A DNA stretch of 64,000 bases from Schmidtea polychroa (lineage: Eukaryota): the NCBI GenBank assembly GCA_044892525.1, contig CM097885.1, forward strand, positions 8,682,001 through 8,746,000. Reading direction: 5' to 3'. The notes beneath the pieces were generated by a model. The model saw nothing but the letters and a program-made list of their open reading frames with translations. It ran no database searches and was not told the DNA's origin. This document shows positions 1 to 49,278 of the stretch, in pieces. Position 1 is the stretch's first letter. Each line of letters opens with the position of its first letter. The translations under genes were made by a program, and so were the position numbers.

Positions 1-8
1 CATAGGGG

Positions 9-56
9 GACAAAATATTTTGTCGGATAGACTCGGAGTATATAGACTCGGTGTAT
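9..56. repeat. 16-bp perfect palindrome plus two 15-bp direct repeats (present in every unit)
   Basis: GACAAAATATTTTGTC at 9-24; ATAGACTCGGAGTAT 27-41 and ATAGACTCGGTGTAT 42-56; immediately followed by (AAT)n. Confidence 0.95.
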
Positions 57-63
57 ATAGATT

Positions 64-153
64 AATAATAATAATAATAATAATAATAATAATAATAATA
101 ATAATAATAATAATAATAATAATAATAATAATAATAATAATAATAATAATAAT
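64..153. repeat. (AAT)n microsatellite spacer, one per unit, variable length
   Basis: Pure AAT run between TAGATT and AAAACTTTAAAC in each unit. Confidence 0.99.
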
Positions 154-240
154 AAAACTTTAAACAGCTTGCAAGGTTACTAGTCATGCTTATTATACAT
201 TTGATGGTTACAATTTCTACATTTTGAAAACTATATTTTG

Positions 241-287
241 ATTGGCTATCACAATTTTATAAATGTAAGAACAAAAGTAATTTAGTT
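241..287 (+). promoter_or_regulatory. Putative Pol II core promoter of the RING gene (repeated in each unit)
   Basis: ATTGG (reverse CCAAT) 241-245, TATAAA 258-263, Inr-like TTAGTT 282-287 about 26 nt downstream of TATA, ATG at 307. Confidence 0.6.
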
Positions 288-306
288 ATTAAGAAATTTA
301 TTACTA

Positions 307-945
307 ATGATTTCTATAAATAAAACTGATGAATGTGTAACACATTTGGTAACTTTATTATTTTGTCAATATTTTTTTTATATATACCATTTATAGCAAG
401 GAAGTCCTACTAGAAATAAGGAAAAATTATGTCCAACCTATTCCGAAATTTCATTGAAATTTTTTAACAACACAGTTGAAGATTTTATAAATAATCATGA
501 TACTTACAGTGATAAGCAACTCATAAATATTTTAAAGATTTTCAAACATTCCTCTATTGAATATTTGTTTGATTTATTTAATTATGAGAAATCCATTTTA
601 AAGTTATCTTGTTATTTAATGTACTTAGAAAAAATAGCAGTAAACAATGATTCACTGAATGAATACTTTTGGAGTTGTATGTATTTAAGGTTGAAACCTG
701 GATATAGTAGATTGATTTATGATTGGATAGCAAAAACCGATTTGATTGAAAATAAGCTAACGAAAAAACTGAACGAGGTTAAGAAAAGGTATTTAACTTG
801 TTCAATTTGTAAAGAAAATCGAGTTTCGGTTTTGTATTTACCATGTGGTCATGTAATTGTTTGTTCTAAGTGTCACGAGAAGAATGTTCGCAAGTGTCAA
901 GCCTGTTCAACATTGATTAATGAATATCATACTATATATATTTAG
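307..945 (+). CDS. IAP/MDM2-type C3HC4 RING-finger protein (putative E3 ligase), copy 1; spliced 307-348 + 397-945, ~196 aa
   Basis: Exon 1 MISINKTDECVTHL, intron GTAACT...TTTATAG (349-396), exon 2 QGSPTRNKEKLCPTYSEISLKFF... C-terminus CSIC-x11-CGH-x3-CSKC-x7-CQAC with hydrophobic tail TIYI. Confidence 0.85.
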
Positions 946-981
946 TTTACCTTTGTTAATTTTACATTATTTTATTGTTTA

Positions 982-1010
982 AATAAATGTATGTTTTGTT
1001 GATTTGTTGA
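982..1010 (+). terminator. Polyadenylation signal plus GT-rich downstream element (each unit)
   Basis: AATAAA at 982-987, 37 nt after the stop, followed by TGTATGTTTTGTTGATTTGTTG. Confidence 0.65.
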
Positions 1011-44926: not shown

Positions 44927-45305
44927 TTTACCTTTGTTAATTTTACATTATTTTATTGTTTAAATAAATGTATGTTTTGTTGATTTGTTGAGCGTGACCA
45001 GTACCCTTGTGAGCATTACCCATAGGGGGACAAAATATTTTGTCGGATAGACTCGGAGTATATAGACTCGGTGTATATAGATTAATAATAATAATAATAA
45101 TAATAATAATAATAATAATAATAATAATAATAATAATAATAATAATAATAATAAAACTTTAAACAGCTTGCAAGGTTACTAGTCATGCTTATTATACATT
45201 TGATGGTTACAATTTCTACATTTTGAAAACTATATTTTGATTGGCTATCACAATTTTATAAATGTAAGAACAAAAGTAATTTAGTTATTAAGAAATTTAT
45301 TACTA

Positions 45306-45944
45306 ATGATTTCTATAAATAAAACTGATGAATGTGTAACACATTTGGTAACTTTATTATTTTGTCAATATTTTTTTTATATATACCATTTATAGCAAGG
45401 AAGTCCTACTAGAAATAAGGAAAAATTATGTCCAACCTATTCCGAAATTTCATTGAAATTTTTTAACAACACAGTTGAAGATTTTATAAATAATCATGAT
45501 ACTTACAGTGATAAGCAACTCATAAATATTTTAAAGATTTTCAAACATTCCTCTATTGAATATTTGTTTGATTTATTTAATTATGAGAAATCCATTTTAA
45601 AGTTATCTTGTTATTTAATGTACTTAGAAAAAATAGCAGTAAACAATGATTCACTGAATGAATACTTTTGGAGTTGTATGTATTTAAGGTTGAAACCTGG
45701 ATATAGTAGATTGATTTATGATTGGATAGCAAAAACCGATTTGATTGAAAATAAGCTAACGAAAAAACTGAACGAGGTTAAGAAAAGGTATTTAACTTGT
45801 TCAATTTGTAAAGAAAATCGAGTTTCGGTTTTGTATTTACCATGTGGTCATGTAATTGTTTGTTCTAAGTGTCACGAGAAGAATGTTCGCAAGTGTCAAG
45901 CCTGTTCAACATTGATTAATGAATATCATACTATATATATTTAG
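45306..45944 (+). CDS. RING-finger protein copy 45
   Basis: Same as copy 1. Confidence 0.85.
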
Positions 45945-46329
45945 TTTACCTTTGTTAATTTTACATTATTTTATTGTTTAAATAAATGTATGTTTTGTTG
46001 ATTTGTTGAGCGTGACCAGTACCCTTGTGAGCATTACCCATAGGGGGACAAAATATTTTGTCGGATAGACTCGGAGTATATAGACTCGGTGTATATAGAT
46101 TAATAATAATAATAATAATAATAATAATAATAATAATAATAATAATAATAATAATAATAATAATAATAATAATAATAAAACTTTAAACAGCTTGCAAGGT
46201 TACTAGTCATGCTTATTATACATTTGATGGTTACAATTTCTACATTTTGAAAACTATATTTTGATTGGCTATCACAATTTTATAAATGTAAGAACAAAAG
46301 TAATTTAGTTATTAAGAAATTTATTACTA

Positions 46330-46968
46330 ATGATTTCTATAAATAAAACTGATGAATGTGTAACACATTTGGTAACTTTATTATTTTGTCAATATTTTTT
46401 TTATATATACCATTTATAGCAAGGAAGTCCTACTAGAAATAAGGAAAAATTATGTCCAACCTATTCCGAAATTTCATTGAAATTTTTTAACAACACAGTT
46501 GAAGATTTTATAAATAATCATGATACTTACAGTGATAAGCAACTCATAAATATTTTAAAGATTTTCAAACATTCCTCTATTGAATATTTGTTTGATTTAT
46601 TTAATTATGAGAAATCCATTTTAAAGTTATCTTGTTATTTAATGTACTTAGAAAAAATAGCAGTAAACAATGATTCACTGAATGAATACTTTTGGAGTTG
46701 TATGTATTTAAGGTTGAAACCTGGATATAGTAGATTGATTTATGATTGGATAGCAAAAACCGATTTGATTGAAAATAAGCTAACGAAAAAACTGAACGAG
46801 GTTAAGAAAAGGTATTTAACTTGTTCAATTTGTAAAGAAAATCGAGTTTCGGTTTTGTATTTACCATGTGGTCATGTAATTGTTTGTTCTAAGTGTCACG
46901 AGAAGAATGTTCGCAAGTGTCAAGCCTGTTCAACATTGATTAATGAATATCATACTATATATATTTAG
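46330..46968 (+). CDS. RING-finger protein copy 46
   Basis: Same as copy 1. Confidence 0.85.
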
Positions 46969-47356
46969 TTTACCTTTGTTAATTTTACATTATTTTATTG
47001 TTTAAATAAATGTATGTTTTGTTGATTTGTTGAGCGTGACCAGTACCCTTGTGAGCATTACCCATAGGGGGACAAAATATTTTGTCGGATAGACTCGGAG
47101 TATATAGACTCGGTGTATATAGATTAATAATAATAATAATAATAATAATAATAATAATAATAATAATAATAATAATAATAATAATAATAATAATAATAAT
47201 AATAAAACTTTAAACAGCTTGCAAGGTTACTAGTCATGCTTATTATACATTTGATGGTTACAATTTCTACATTTTGAAAACTATATTTTGATTGGCTATC
47301 ACAATTTTATAAATGTAAGAACAAAAGTAATTTAGTTATTAAGAAATTTATTACTA

Positions 47357-47995
47357 ATGATTTCTATAAATAAAACTGATGAATGTGTAACACATTTGGT
47401 AACTTTATTATTTTGTCAATATTTTTTTTATATATACCATTTATAGCAAGGAAGTCCTACTAGAAATAAGGAAAAATTATGTCCAACCTATTCCGAAATT
47501 TCATTGAAATTTTTTAACAACACAGTTGAAGATTTTATAAATAATCATGATACTTACAGTGATAAGCAACTCATAAATATTTTAAAGATTTTCAAACATT
47601 CCTCTATTGAATATTTGTTTGATTTATTTAATTATGAGAAATCCATTTTAAAGTTATCTTGTTATTTAATGTACTTAGAAAAAATAGCAGTAAACAATGA
47701 TTCACTGAATGAATACTTTTGGAGTTGTATGTATTTAAGGTTGAAACCTGGATATAGTAGATTGATTTATGATTGGATAGCAAAAACCGATTTGATTGAA
47801 AATAAGCTAACGAAAAAACTGAACGAGGTTAAGAAAAGGTATTTAACTTGTTCAATTTGTAAAGAAAATCGAGTTTCGGTTTTGTATTTACCATGTGGTC
47901 ATGTAATTGTTTGTTCTAAGTGTCACGAGAAGAATGTTCGCAAGTGTCAAGCCTGTTCAACATTGATTAATGAATATCATACTATATATATTTAG
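47357..47995 (+). CDS. RING-finger protein copy 47
   Basis: Same as copy 1. Confidence 0.85.
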
Positions 47996-48374
47996 TTTAC
48001 CTTTGTTAATTTTACATTATTTTATTGTTTAAATAAATGTATGTTTTGTTGATTTGTTGAGCGTGACCAGTACCCTTGTGAGCATTACCCATAGGGGGAC
48101 AAAATATTTTGTCGGATAGACTCGGAGTATATAGACTCGGTGTATATAGATTAATAATAATAATAATAATAATAATAATAATAATAATAATAATAATAAT
48201 AATAATAATAATAATAATAATAAAACTTTAAACAGCTTGCAAGGTTACTAGTCATGCTTATTATACATTTGATGGTTACAATTTCTACATTTTGAAAACT
48301 ATATTTTGATTGGCTATCACAATTTTATAAATGTAAGAACAAAAGTAATTTAGTTATTAAGAAATTTATTACTA

Positions 48375-49013
48375 ATGATTTCTATAAATAAAACTGATGA
48401 ATGTGTAACACATTTGGTAACTTTATTATTTTGTCAATATTTTTTTTATATATACCATTTATAGCAAGGAAGTCCTACTAGAAATAAGGAAAAATTATGT
48501 CCAACCTATTCCGAAATTTCATTGAAATTTTTTAACAACACAGTTGAAGATTTTATAAATAATCATGATACTTACAGTGATAAGCAACTCATAAATATTT
48601 TAAAGATTTTCAAACATTCCTCTATTGAATATTTGTTTGATTTATTTAATTATGAGAAATCCATTTTAAAGTTATCTTGTTATTTAATGTACTTAGAAAA
48701 AATAGCAGTAAACAATGATTCACTGAATGAATACTTTTGGAGTTGTATGTATTTAAGGTTGAAACCTGGATATAGTAGATTGATTTATGATTGGATAGCA
48801 AAAACCGATTTGATTGAAAATAAGCTAACGAAAAAACTGAACGAGGTTAAGAAAAGGTATTTAACTTGTTCAATTTGTAAAGAAAATCGAGTTTCGGTTT
48901 TGTATTTACCATGTGGTCATGTAATTGTTTGTTCTAAGTGTCACGAGAAGAATGTTCGCAAGTGTCAAGCCTGTTCAACATTGATTAATGAATATCATAC
49001 TATATATATTTAG
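48375..49013 (+). CDS. RING-finger protein copy 48 (last unit)
   Basis: Same protein; the 3' flank has an extra TTTGTTGA and a G>T change in the 15-bp repeat. Confidence 0.85.
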
Positions 49014-49278
49014 TTTACCTTTGTTAATTTTACATTATTTTATTGTTTAAATAAATGTATGTTTTGTTGATTTGTTGATTTGTTGAGCGTGACCAGTACC
49101 CTTGTGAGCATTACCCATAGGGGGACAAAATATTTTGTCGGATAGACTCGGATTATATAGACTCGGTGTATATAGATTAATAATAATAATAATAATAATA
49201 ATAATAATAATAATAATAATAATAATAATAATAATAATAATAATATCTTTAGAAATAATAATCTTAATAACAAGATAT

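What the first reader, a model, noticed from the sequence alone, without database searches (positions are those of the whole stretch)
1..49245. At least 48 tandem, near-identical, intact RING E3-like genes next to a Polinton: a gene 'accordion'
Seen: 48 complete ~1-kb units with no frameshift or premature stop, only a handful of SNPs, and each with its own promoter-like motifs, intron and polyA signal. The array abuts TIR-like repeats and a Polinton gene set. Known: poxviruses amplify host-antagonist genes in tandem (K3L accordions), and IAP-type RING proteins are used by large DNA viruses. Inference: this is a very recent, large dosage amplification of a virus/TE-borne ubiquitin-ligase-like gene. 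It may act as a host-defence or apoptosis antagonist, a selfish element, a host-co-opted gene, or a small-RNA source. I know of no described Polinton with such an array.
Basis: partly seen in the sequence, partly recalled or inferred. Interest (0 to 1): 0.92.

Follow-up and report, generated by a model that had tools for sequence, protein, structure and literature searches.

The report
Tandem array of a Polinton RING gene
A small ubiquitin-ligase-like gene that normally sits once at the tip of a virus-like Polinton/Maverick transposon has been copied 49 times head to tail at one chromosomal site, most likely through slippage between the simple TAA repeats on either side of it.

Summary
The assembly carries 49 head-to-tail units of about 1 kb: 48 in the window and one just upstream. 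All 49 keep a 182-codon RING-finger reading frame, and 37 of the 49 are identical.

The gene is not merely next to a Polinton. It is the usual terminal accessory gene of an abundant Polinton family in this 781-Mb animal genome, sitting between pPolB and the terminal inverted repeat (TIR). The "TIR-like repeats" are this element's own TIR. The Polinton genes to the right belong to a different, mosaic copy.

The gene is flanked by (TAA)n runs, and every array junction is a (TAA)12-36 run. This points to unequal exchange or slippage. A 99.4-99.7% identical copy of the whole locus, 330 kb away, has only 4 units. An unrelated element on another chromosome carries its own array of 5 to 6 units.

The genome holds about 1,549 copies of the RING motif, so this array adds about 3%. 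Between element lineages the gene is under purifying selection (dN/dS 0.2-0.3). Its RING resembles IAP/IDOL-type RINGs, but it has no BIR domain, and its N-terminal helical domain matches no known fold.

Expression, the start codon and the true copy number are unverified. A neutral, young transposon-derived gene array is the likeliest reading. An adaptive "accordion" remains possible.

The parts
1..49245 (+). In-window part of the tandem array: 48 complete units plus the last anchor and (TAA)22. One more unit lies at window -884..0, so the array has 49 RING bodies.
1..62 (+). Example 'anchor': the innermost part of the Polinton TIR, repeated in every unit. It holds two GTATATAGA(C/T) motifs.
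   Evidence: The 37-nt core has 791 exact matches in the genome (442 forward, 349 reverse; control 0), often as inverted pairs about 16.4-17 kb apart. It lies inside the inverted repeat of E1.
63..155 (+). Example (TAA)31 junction microsatellite. Its length is 12-36 repeats across units. This is the site of the unequal exchange.
   Evidence: Canonical elements have (TAA)n on both sides of the gene.
156..1039 (+). Example 884-nt unit body, holding the RING gene.
186..206 (+). Candidate exon 1 (ATG CTT ATT ATA CAT TTG ATG | GT). This is inferred, not shown.
   Evidence: It is the only upstream ATG-started frame that ends at a GT in phase with the main frame. It is conserved in E1 and E2, and E2 carries a 9-nt, in-frame insertion inside it. 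The donor GTTACA is weak.
207..396 (+). Candidate 190-nt intron, ending ttatAG. The stronger-looking GTAAGA at 265 has no in-frame ATG upstream.
   Evidence: No RNA evidence.
397..945 (+). Main coding frame: 182 codons plus TAG. It encodes an N-terminal six-helix domain and a C-terminal C3HC4 RING (residues 134-175).
982..987 (+). AATAAA signal 37 nt after the stop codon.
   Evidence: read
48224..49115 (+). Last unit body (892 nt). It keeps an 8-bp stretch (TTTGTTGA) that is also present in E1 and in the C3 array but missing from the other 48 units.
49014..49821 (+). The element's own TIR. Its parts are the RING 3'UTR, the anchor (49116-49177), (TAA)22 (49178-49245), and 31-bp tandem repeats (49453-49821). 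The element ends at about 49814-49821.
   Evidence: The E1 inverted repeat 4234-5390 / 22928-21690 aligns here. TRF rows.
49903..54263 (+). Right arm of a 4.3-kb inverted duplication. Its partner, 96.7-99.75% identical, lies at window -6253..-1959, left of the array.
52146..54779 (+). pPolB of a different Polinton lineage, in a separate mosaic copy.
   Evidence: Pfam DNA_pol_B_2 1.8e-29. 62% protein identity to E1 pPolB.
55446..55796 (-). Adenovirus-type cysteine protease fragment.
   Evidence: Pfam Peptidase_C5 2.9e-7
57100..58260 (-). Integrase (rve plus chromodomain), carrying an in-frame (AAT)21 run.
58751..59392 (-). A32-like packaging ATPase.
   Evidence: Pfam Pox_A32 1.1e-6
61984..63594 (+). 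Duplicate of the pPolB C-terminal half. Window 62042-63770 matches 53227-54955 at 99.65%.

Best explanation
The array is a young tandem amplification that arose in place on the chromosome. What was amplified is the terminal accessory-gene cassette of a Polinton/Maverick element.

In intact family members the order is: pPolB, a few (TAA)n-AAACTTTAAACAGCTTGCA mini-repeats, the RING gene, the inner TIR ('anchor'), (TAA)n, 31-bp TIR repeats, element end. The gene therefore lies between two (TAA)n microsatellites.

Misaligned exchange or replication slippage between those two microsatellites duplicates exactly 'gene + inner TIR + one (TAA)n'. Further unequal sister-chromatid exchange, sometimes of multi-unit blocks, then expands the array.

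The encoded protein is a small, probably dimeric E3 ubiquitin ligase. It has an IAP/IDOL-type C-terminal RING and a novel helical N-terminal domain that presumably binds the substrate. The element family keeps it under purifying selection.

Shown: the anatomy, the junctions, the recurrence and the youth of the array.

Inferred: the exchange mechanism, the ligase activity, and that this particular 49-copy array is a neutral by-product (a nascent transposon-derived gene array or satellite) rather than a selected dosage increase.
For: 1. The gene is the element's own.
- E1 (C1:44826234-44844928) has 1.15-kb TIRs.
- E1 carries the RING frame directly inside one TIR and downstream of pPolB on the same strand.
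- The pPolB-3'+RING+anchor query matched over its full length at 22 places, at 88-100% identity. Only 39 of 5,132 first-look candidates were scored, and 89 matches were listed.

2. The junctions are microsatellites.
- Every unit boundary is a perfect (TAA)12-36 run.
- Canonical copies have TAA runs on both sides of the gene.

3. Amplification is recurrent and independent.
- C3:1767501-1776500 has 5 complete units and 1 truncated unit with the same unit structure. It has a different haplotype (K50N, F58I, E64D) and an intact upstream pPolB end.
- A copy of the whole locus at C1:9.00-9.04 Mb, 99.4-99.7% identical in its flanks, has 4 units.
- The 19.7-kb repeats downstream have 1 unit each.

4. 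The array is young and grew partly by blocks.
- 37 of 49 bodies are identical.
- The pattern TAA29 - T26I body - TAA22 - T26I body - TAA23 recurs at units 3-4 and, with one extra body, at units 8-10.

5. The array is not in a working element. Homology to E1 stops about 350 bp upstream of the first unit, and no pPolB follows.

6. The dosage argument is weak. The RING 47-mer has 1,549 genomic matches at up to 3 mismatches (control 0).

7. The gene is real and constrained.
- dN/dS is 0.20 (array vs E2) and 0.29 (E2 vs C3).
- Full-length relatives exist at 40-47% identity.
- All 8 zinc ligands are conserved in the alignment.
- AlphaFold2 mean pLDDT is 90.4.
- RING matches: cIAP2 RING 3eb5 at E 1.2e-5, rmsd 0.9 over 61 columns; BIRC7 at Z 8.5 and IDOL at Z 8.4.
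Against: - No read-level check of the copy number was possible.
- Nothing is known about transcription.
- All 49 frames are intact, which is what selection would also produce. At this age neutrality predicts the same: there are only 5 distinct substitutions, 2 of them nonsynonymous and one destroying a zinc ligand.
- The same cassette has amplified at least twice independently. This could reflect selection rather than only a fragile structure.
- The start codon is unresolved, so 'intact gene' is not proven.
- Exchange between the TAA runs is inferred from the junctions and was not observed.
Confidence: 0.6

Rival explanations
1. Adaptive gene 'accordion'. The RING ligase counteracts a host (or rival-element) factor, and extra copies at this expressed locus were selected for dosage, as with poxvirus K3L arrays.
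For: - 49 of 49 frames are intact.
- The gene is under purifying selection between lineages.
- The same cassette amplified independently on C3.
- Copy number differs sharply (4 vs 49) between near-identical paralogous loci.
- The RING is of the IAP type used by large DNA viruses.
Against: - The genome already has about 1,549 RING-motif copies, so 49 is a small fraction unless most of them are silent.
- The array is chromosomal, in a truncated element without pPolB, not in a replicating viral genome.
- One unit carries a zinc-ligand loss, C150R.
- The flanking microsatellites explain the recurrence without any selection.
- There are no expression data.
Confidence: 0.13
2. The array is a small-RNA (piRNA-type) source locus. 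A tandem, transposon-derived array in a mosaic of Polinton fragments would be transcribed to make silencing RNAs against the roughly 1,500 RING-bearing elements.
For: The locus is a patchwork of Polinton pieces in both orientations, with inverted and direct segmental duplications. Each unit includes part of the TIR and a gene shared by the whole family.
Against: No small-RNA or RNA data could be examined. All units point the same way. Nothing in the sequence distinguishes this reading from a neutral array.
Confidence: 0.1
3. Assembly artefact. The true locus has one or a few units, and the assembler inflated a repeat.
For: The units are near-identical. A second copy of the locus has 4 units, which could be the other haplotype or the true state. 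No long reads were available. The runs laid are short Logan contigs only.
Against: - The units differ in (TAA)n length (12-36) and carry a structured, block-wise pattern of variants. Simple inflation does not create that.
- The array has clean, biologically sensible left and right ends.
- An independent array exists on C3.
Confidence: 0.07

Closest known systems
Tandem repeats or satellites derived from transposable elements (for example Tetris in Drosophila virilis). Reviews: PMC9659126, PMC12628747, PMC6947457.
   Same: An internal or terminal part of a transposon, including part of its TIR, is turned into a head-to-tail array by unequal exchange or non-allelic homologous recombination (NAHR). 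Arrays arise at several loci.
   Different: Here the unit is a complete, still-open accessory gene of a Polinton/Maverick, with junctions in a built-in microsatellite. Neither PMC9659126 nor PMC12628747 contains the words Polinton or Maverick (passages only). For PMC6947457 and PMC4079207 I saw the search listing and the start of the abstract only.
Poxvirus genomic accordions (K3L arrays). PMC6115191: listing and start of abstract only. Elde et al. 2012 is recalled and was not read here.
   Same: Head-to-tail, recombination-driven copy-number expansion of a small virus-borne gene, with near-identical, homogenised copies.
   Different: The poxvirus arrays arise in replicating viral genomes under demonstrated selection against a known host factor. 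This array is chromosomal, sits in a truncated element, has no evidence of selection or expression, and has no known target.
IAP-family and IDOL/MEX-3/MUL1-type C-terminal RING E3 ligases (Pfam zf-C3HC4_3)
   Same: C3HC4 ligand pattern, a RING at the extreme C-terminus with a short hydrophobic tail, and close structural matches to the cIAP2, XIAP, BIRC7 and IDOL RINGs.
   Different: There is no BIR domain. The N-terminal 130 residues form a six-helix domain with no convincing structural match: best Z is 5.9, to a designed protein, and there is no Foldseek hit at E<=0.001. The viral-contig hits to the RING are true BIR+RING IAPs of large DNA viruses and are not relatives of the whole protein.
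Accessory regions of Mavericks/Polintons (vertebrate Mavericks, PMC8097293; passages read)
   Same: [quoted passage not shown] Here the RING gene lies between pPolB and the TIR.
   Different: PMC8097293 has no occurrence of 'RING' or 'ubiquitin'. This accessory gene family and its tandem amplification are not described there.

Membership tests
RING-type E3 ligase, zf-C3HC4_3 (IAP/IDOL type) | Eight zinc ligands in C3HC4 order | tested here: met
   C135, C138, C150, H152, C156 and C159 are invariant, and C167 and C170 are at least 90% conserved, in 20 sequences.
RING-type E3 ligase, zf-C3HC4_3 (IAP/IDOL type) | Profile match above the curated cut-off | tested here: met
   PF13920 scores 38.2 bits against a cut-off of 27. 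20 of 20 alignment members match.
RING-type E3 ligase, zf-C3HC4_3 (IAP/IDOL type) | RING fold like solved IAP/IDOL RINGs | tested here: met
   3eb5 (cIAP2 RING): E 1.2e-5, rmsd 0.9 over 61 columns. 4auq_E (BIRC7): Z 8.5, rmsd 1.1 over 56 residues. 2yhn_A (IDOL): Z 8.4. The model's mean pLDDT is 90.4.
RING-type E3 ligase, zf-C3HC4_3 (IAP/IDOL type) | E2 binding and ubiquitin transfer | not testable with these tools
   Needs a biochemical assay.
Inhibitor-of-apoptosis protein (IAP) | At least one BIR domain | tested here: not met
   No BIR hit in the protein or in any of the 20 family members at E<=0.01. The N-terminal part is all-helical.
Polinton/Maverick element (the RING gene's carrier, judged on E1 and the window) | Protein-primed family B DNA polymerase | tested here: met
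   DNA_pol_B_2 at 8.6e-30 in E1 and 1.8e-29 in the window.
Polinton/Maverick element (the RING gene's carrier, judged on E1 and the window) | Retroviral-type (rve) integrase | tested here: met
   The window ORF scores rve 33.5 bits against a cut-off of 32.6, plus a chromodomain. The E1 ORF scores 25.8 bits, below the cut-off, at E 1.3e-5.
Polinton/Maverick element (the RING gene's carrier, judged on E1 and the window) | Adenovirus-type protease and A32-like packaging ATPase | tested here: met
   Peptidase_C5 in the window and in E1. Pox_A32 at 28.8 bits in the window. In E1 the ATPase region aligns to the window at 88% DNA identity, but Pfam gave no hit at E<=0.001.
Polinton/Maverick element (the RING gene's carrier, judged on E1 and the window) | Long terminal inverted repeats | tested here: met
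   E1 4234-5390 vs 22928-21690, at 88-92% identity.
Polinton/Maverick element (the RING gene's carrier, judged on E1 and the window) | Double and single jelly-roll capsid proteins | tested here: inconclusive
   Several ORFs of 315-360 aa have no Pfam hit. No structure-based test was done.
Polinton/Maverick element (the RING gene's carrier, judged on E1 and the window) | Target-site duplication | not tested
   The element ends were not mapped to the base.
Poxvirus-type gene accordion | Head-to-tail copies of one gene with variable copy number | tested here: met
   49, 4 and 1 units at paralogous loci, and 5 to 6 units on C3.
Poxvirus-type gene accordion | Arises in a replicating viral genome | tested here: not met
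   The array lies in a chromosomal, 5'-truncated element without pPolB. The same flanks carry 4 units at a paralogous locus, so the expansion happened in place.
Poxvirus-type gene accordion | Expansion driven by selection for dosage | not testable with these tools
   There are no expression or population data. The array holds 49 of about 1,549 genomic copies.
Transposon-derived tandem repeat (satellite in the making) | The monomer is homologous to part of a dispersed transposon | tested here: met
   The unit matches E1 5136-6259 at 98% identity.
Transposon-derived tandem repeat (satellite in the making) | Head-to-tail arrays at more than one locus | tested here: met
   C1:8.68 Mb, C1:9.01 Mb and C3:1.77 Mb.
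Transposon-derived tandem repeat (satellite in the making) | Loss of coding function, non-genic monomer | tested here: not met
   All 49 frames are open. On this point it is a gene array rather than a classical satellite.

The most novel reading that the evidence does not exclude
The array is an expressed dosage 'accordion' of a Maverick-encoded E3 ubiquitin ligase in an animal chromosome. Either the element family or the host has amplified a viral ligase that targets a host (or rival-element) protein, and the flanking (TAA)n runs act as a built-in device that lets this cassette expand and contract quickly. That would be the first accordion described for a Polinton/Maverick, and the first outside a free viral genome.
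Probability: 0.12. Interest if true: 0.8.

Novelty: new variant of a known kind. Interest (0 to 1): 0.45.

Why it matters
The result matters in three ways.

1. A conserved Polinton accessory gene. Polintons/Mavericks in this animal genome carry a conserved ubiquitin-ligase-like accessory gene at their tip, in more than a thousand copies. This is a candidate tool for manipulating host proteins. Its N-terminal domain has no recognisable fold, so it is worth a biochemical look.

2. A satellite caught at an early stage. The locus shows how a virus-like transposon can seed a gene array or satellite. Two microsatellites built into the element bracket the gene. The same cassette has expanded independently at least twice, and it differs 4 vs 49 between near-identical paralogous loci.

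3. A possible link to virus evolution. If the array proves to be expressed and selected, it would extend the 'genomic accordion' idea from poxviruses to endogenous Polintons. If it does not, it is a clean example of neutral array birth.

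Tried and rejected
Sequencing runs.
- No RNA holder was listed.
- The four runs laid were all short Logan contigs of a high-copy family. Two were only guessed to be RNA.
- Among the 15 joints listed (38 more were not shown) none skips the candidate intron, no usable ends were seen, and depth cannot be compared along a gene. 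Nothing follows from this for expression, splicing or copy number.

Relatives in public contigs.
- The viral-contig scan with alignment A1 gave 25 loci. I scanned ORFs of 4 of them. The RING-matching ORF in each of the four was a true BIR+RING IAP, and three of the four also showed large-DNA-virus or ankyrin genes (RNA polymerase, VLTF3, ankyrins). None was a relative of the whole protein.
- The metagenome scan kept 80 loci, almost all matching the RING only. I did not examine them further.
- The genomic context of the full-length relatives (P0002, P0004, P0005 and others) could not be obtained.

Structure and family searches.
- N-terminal domain alone (pLDDT 93.7): the best VIA Z was 5.9, to a designed protein, and Foldseek gave no hit at E<=0.001.
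- I considered a CARD or death fold, because six helices precede a RING as in cIAP1. No such chain appears in the rows shown. This is inconclusive.
- The ESM Atlas returned only generic RING clusters at scores of 0.82 or less.
- Rfam gave no family at gathering score in the window.
- The bacterial promoter/terminator scan matched its shuffled control and is irrelevant for a eukaryote.

Start codon.
- The ATG at 430 is out of frame, opens a 12-codon frame, and is lost in E2. Rejected.
- The GTAAGA donor at 265 has no in-frame ATG upstream. Rejected as the donor of a first coding exon.
- Spliced-leader trans-splicing at ttatAG|CAA, with a leader supplying the AUG, was considered (literature search, listing only).

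Other.
- Earlier notes of this scan hold nothing on this protein or on this kind of array.

Full report
**What is in the window**

TRF finds, from base 1 to 49245, a strict alternation every ~1 kb of a 15-nt doublet and a perfect (TAA)n run. GC content is a flat 24-25% over the array and changes after 50 kb.

A 37-nt marker at the start of each unit occurs 49 times in the window. The 48 spacings are 982-1054 nt.

Each unit has three parts:
- a 62-nt 'anchor'
- (TAA)12-36
- an 884-nt body

I fetched the 30 kb upstream. One more body lies at window -884..0, and the array starts there. So the array has 49 bodies, 48 of them in the window.

49 of 49 bodies keep a 182-codon stop-to-stop frame, and 37 are identical. 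The other 12 bodies carry:
- T26I (units 3, 4, 8, 9, 10)
- C150R, a zinc ligand (unit 19)
- a synonymous change at codon 114 (units 30, 35)
- a synonymous change at codon 82 (unit 42)
- one non-coding change (units 14, 39)
- an 8-bp insertion in the last unit

From these frequencies the mean pairwise difference is about 0.05% (my arithmetic).

The (TAA)n lengths and the T26I marker recur in blocks. The pattern 29 - I - 22 - I - 23 appears at units 3-4, and 29 - I - 22 - I - 22 - I - 23 at units 8-10. This suggests that multi-unit pieces were duplicated.

**What the unit is**

The window is G000:C1:8682001-8746000, in a 781-Mb assembly.

The anchor has 791 exact matches in the genome: 442 forward and 349 reverse, with 0 for the reversed control. 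Outside the array they are scattered, and several form inverted pairs (minus strand, then plus strand) about 16.4-17 kb apart.

I took one such pair as a reference, called E1 here (C1:44826234-44844928; loci L017-L019). It is an 18.7-kb element with 1.15-kb terminal inverted repeats (TIRs). It encodes pPolB, an adenovirus-type protease and an rve+chromo integrase, so it is a Polinton/Maverick.

The array unit matches E1 5136-6259 at 98% identity. Read in the window's orientation, E1 runs:
1. the end of pPolB
2. short direct repeats
3. three (TAA)n-AAACTTTAAACAGCTTGCA mini-repeats
4. the RING gene
5. the anchor
6. (TAA)n
7. 31-bp tandem repeats
8. the element end

The RING gene is therefore the element's own terminal accessory gene. 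The inner edge of the TIR reaches the RING stop codon, and the gene is bracketed by two TAA microsatellites.

A query spanning the pPolB end, the RING gene and the anchor matched over its full length at 22 places, at 88-100% identity. Only 39 of 5,132 first-look candidates were scored. A 47-nt stretch of the RING domain has 1,549 matches at up to 3 mismatches, with 0 for the control.

**The locus**

To the right, the last unit runs into the rest of the TIR: anchor 49116, (TAA)22, then the 31-bp repeats to about 49821.

To the left, homology to E1 stops about 350 bp upstream of the first RING body, and no pPolB follows. The array thus sits in a 5'-truncated element.

The Polinton genes at 52-62 kb belong to another, mosaic copy:
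- Its pPolB is only 62% identical in protein to E1's.
- Window 55458-61872 is colinear with E1 13564-20548 at 77-88% DNA identity.

The surroundings are full of segmental duplications:
- A 4.3-kb inverted duplicate (96.7-99.75% identical) brackets the array: window -6253..-1959 against 49903-54263.
- Window 53227-54955 and 56187-59157 are repeated at 62042-66726.
- A ~19.7-kb unit, each copy with a single RING unit plus TIR, is repeated three times downstream.

The whole locus exists a second time 330 kb further along C1 (C1:9004001-9044000). Its flanks are 99.4-99.7% identical to the window's, but it has only 4 RING units. Most of the growth to 49 units therefore happened in place, after that duplication. 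The alternative is that the other copy shrank.

**Recurrence**

C3:1767501-1776500 holds another array of 5 complete units and one truncated unit, with the same anatomy (body, anchor, (TAA)25-35). All 5 complete frames are open.
- It shares K50N, F58I and E64D, which the window's array lacks.
- It keeps the 8-bp stretch that 48 of the window's units lack.
- The pPolB end lies directly upstream of it.

It is an independent amplification in a different element.

**Mechanism**

These four observations fit unequal exchange or slippage between the two TAA runs, followed by unequal sister-chromatid exchange:
- Every junction is a TAA run of variable length.
- The single-copy gene already lies between two TAA runs.
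- The mini-repeats upstream show small-scale slippage.
- The same cassette amplified independently.

This is an inference from the anatomy. No intermediate was observed.

**The gene and its protein**

Gene model:
- The frame has no in-frame ATG until codon 75 and opens directly after ttatAG.
- The only upstream ATG-started frame that meets a GT in phase is ATG CTT ATT ATA CAT TTG ATG|GTTACA (window 186-206).
- That candidate exon is conserved in E1 and E2, and E2 carries a 9-nt in-frame insertion inside it.
- The donor is weak, and no RNA supports it.
- The nicer GTAAGA at 265 has no ATG in frame. The ATG at 430 is out of frame and is lost in E2.
- Relatives start within a few residues of the frame's first codons, which fits a very short first exon or a trans-spliced leader.
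- Earlier notes of this scan on the same genome (e1-7879957, e1-7879963) inferred host-type introns in this family's pPolB. I did not test that.
- AATAAA follows the stop by 37 nt.

Protein:
- Pfam gives zf-C3HC4_3 at residues 134-175, 38.2 bits against a cut-off of 27.
- A whole-library HMMER search found 343 proteins at E<=0.001. Only a handful cover the N-terminal part as well, at 40-47% identity and 140-200 aa.
- In the 20-sequence alignment six of the eight zinc ligands and P149 are invariant; C167, C170 and G151 are at least 90% conserved.
- AlphaFold2 gives pLDDT 90.4: six helices (residues 20-132) followed by the RING.
- The RING superposes on the cIAP2, IDOL, XIAP and BIRC7 RINGs.
- The N-terminal domain, modelled alone (pLDDT 93.7), has no convincing match.
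- No BIR domain is present in any of the 20 family members, so the protein is not an IAP.
- dN/dS is 0.20 between the array copy and E2 (10 synonymous, 9 nonsynonymous differences) and 0.29 between E2 and the C3 copy.
- Of 27 common family variants listed over the frame, 8 are synonymous and 19 nonsynonymous, on 102 and 444 sites respectively. None touches a zinc ligand.

The element family keeps this protein. That it is a dimeric E3 ligase with a substrate-binding N-terminal domain is inferred from what is known of IAP/IDOL-type RINGs (recalled, not tested here).

**Does the array do anything?**

Nothing here shows that it does.

The single run search listed no RNA holder. The four runs laid were short contigs of a high-copy family and give no information on expression, splicing or copy number.

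Points against a dosage role:
- The array is about 3% of the genomic RING copies.
- It lies in a truncated element.
- One unit has lost a zinc ligand.

Points that keep a dosage role open:
- All frames are intact.
- The gene is constrained between lineages.
- The cassette amplified twice independently.
- Copy number is 4 vs 49 at near-identical loci.

With only five distinct substitutions, the array is too young for its own variants to discriminate between the readings.

**Comparison with the literature**

- Transposon parts turning into tandem repeats is well known. The reviews PMC9659126 and PMC12628747 (passages read) discuss TIRs, UTRs and partial ORFs as sources. Neither contains the words Polinton or Maverick.
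[quoted passage not shown] That paper has no mention of RING or ubiquitin (PMC8097293, passages).
- A search for Polinton + RING + ubiquitin ligase returned 9 papers (7 listed). None has a Polinton-borne RING in its title or abstract start. In the one I opened (PMC4981718, one passage), RING ligases are assigned to baculoviruses, poxviruses and some giant viruses.
- For poxvirus accordions I saw only the search listing and abstract start (PMC6115191). The original 2012 paper is recalled, not read.
- I found no description of a Polinton-derived gene array in these searches. That is a statement about these searches, not about all the literature. Supplements were not consulted.

**Verdict**

The best reading is a young, in-place, microsatellite-mediated tandem amplification of a Polinton's terminal RING-ligase cassette. 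It is probably a neutral by-product and a gene array on its way to becoming a satellite.

Interest is moderate, for three reasons: the accessory ligase family is new, the process of array birth is unusually easy to read here, and an adaptive accordion remains a testable minority possibility.

Noticed in passing
window 59452-59955 (+): A 167-aa ORF inside the mosaic Polinton copy has a TATA-binding-protein repeat (Pfam TBP, E 6.1e-15, one repeat). The anchor and the region upstream of the RING gene carry TATATAG-like motifs. A Polinton-encoded TBP-like factor would be unusual. The collinear part of E1 gave no TBP hit at E<=0.001.
   Followed up: partly
window 49441-49813: The outer part of the TIR holds 12 perfect ATGAGTCAT palindromes, against 0.75 expected, inside the 31-bp tandem repeats. 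From memory this matches the AP-1/GCN4 site core. They could be binding sites for a host bZIP factor or for an element protein.
   Followed up: partly
window -6253..-1959 (L010/L011) and 49903-54263: A 4.3-kb inverted duplication, 96.7-99.75% identical, brackets the array plus TIR. The same layout occurs at the paralogous locus. Its origin is unexplained. It may relate to the palindrome-shaped Polinton relatives noted earlier in this genome (e1-7879908).
   Followed up: partly
G000:C1:9004001-9044000 (L023-L026): This is a second copy of the whole >40-kb locus, 330 kb downstream and 99.4-99.7% identical, with 4 RING units instead of 49. It could be a true segmental duplication or an assembly duplicate of the other haplotype.
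   Followed up: partly
window 67871-114000 (L012-L016): A ~19.7-kb higher-order repeat occurs three times at 99.5-99.9% identity. Each copy is made of Polinton fragments in both orientations plus one RING unit and a TIR.
   Followed up: partly
window 57736-57799 (inside the integrase ORF, - strand): An in-frame (AAT)21 microsatellite encodes a run of about 20 isoleucines in the middle of the integrase frame. Long trinucleotide runs also sit at 55111-55333 and 60552-60683. Microsatellite growth inside this element family seems general.
   Followed up: no
G000:C3:1767501-1776500 (L132): An independent RING array: 5 complete units and 1 unit cut at nt 746 by unrelated sequence. Six (TAA)13-21 mini-repeats lie upstream of its first unit.
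   Followed up: yes
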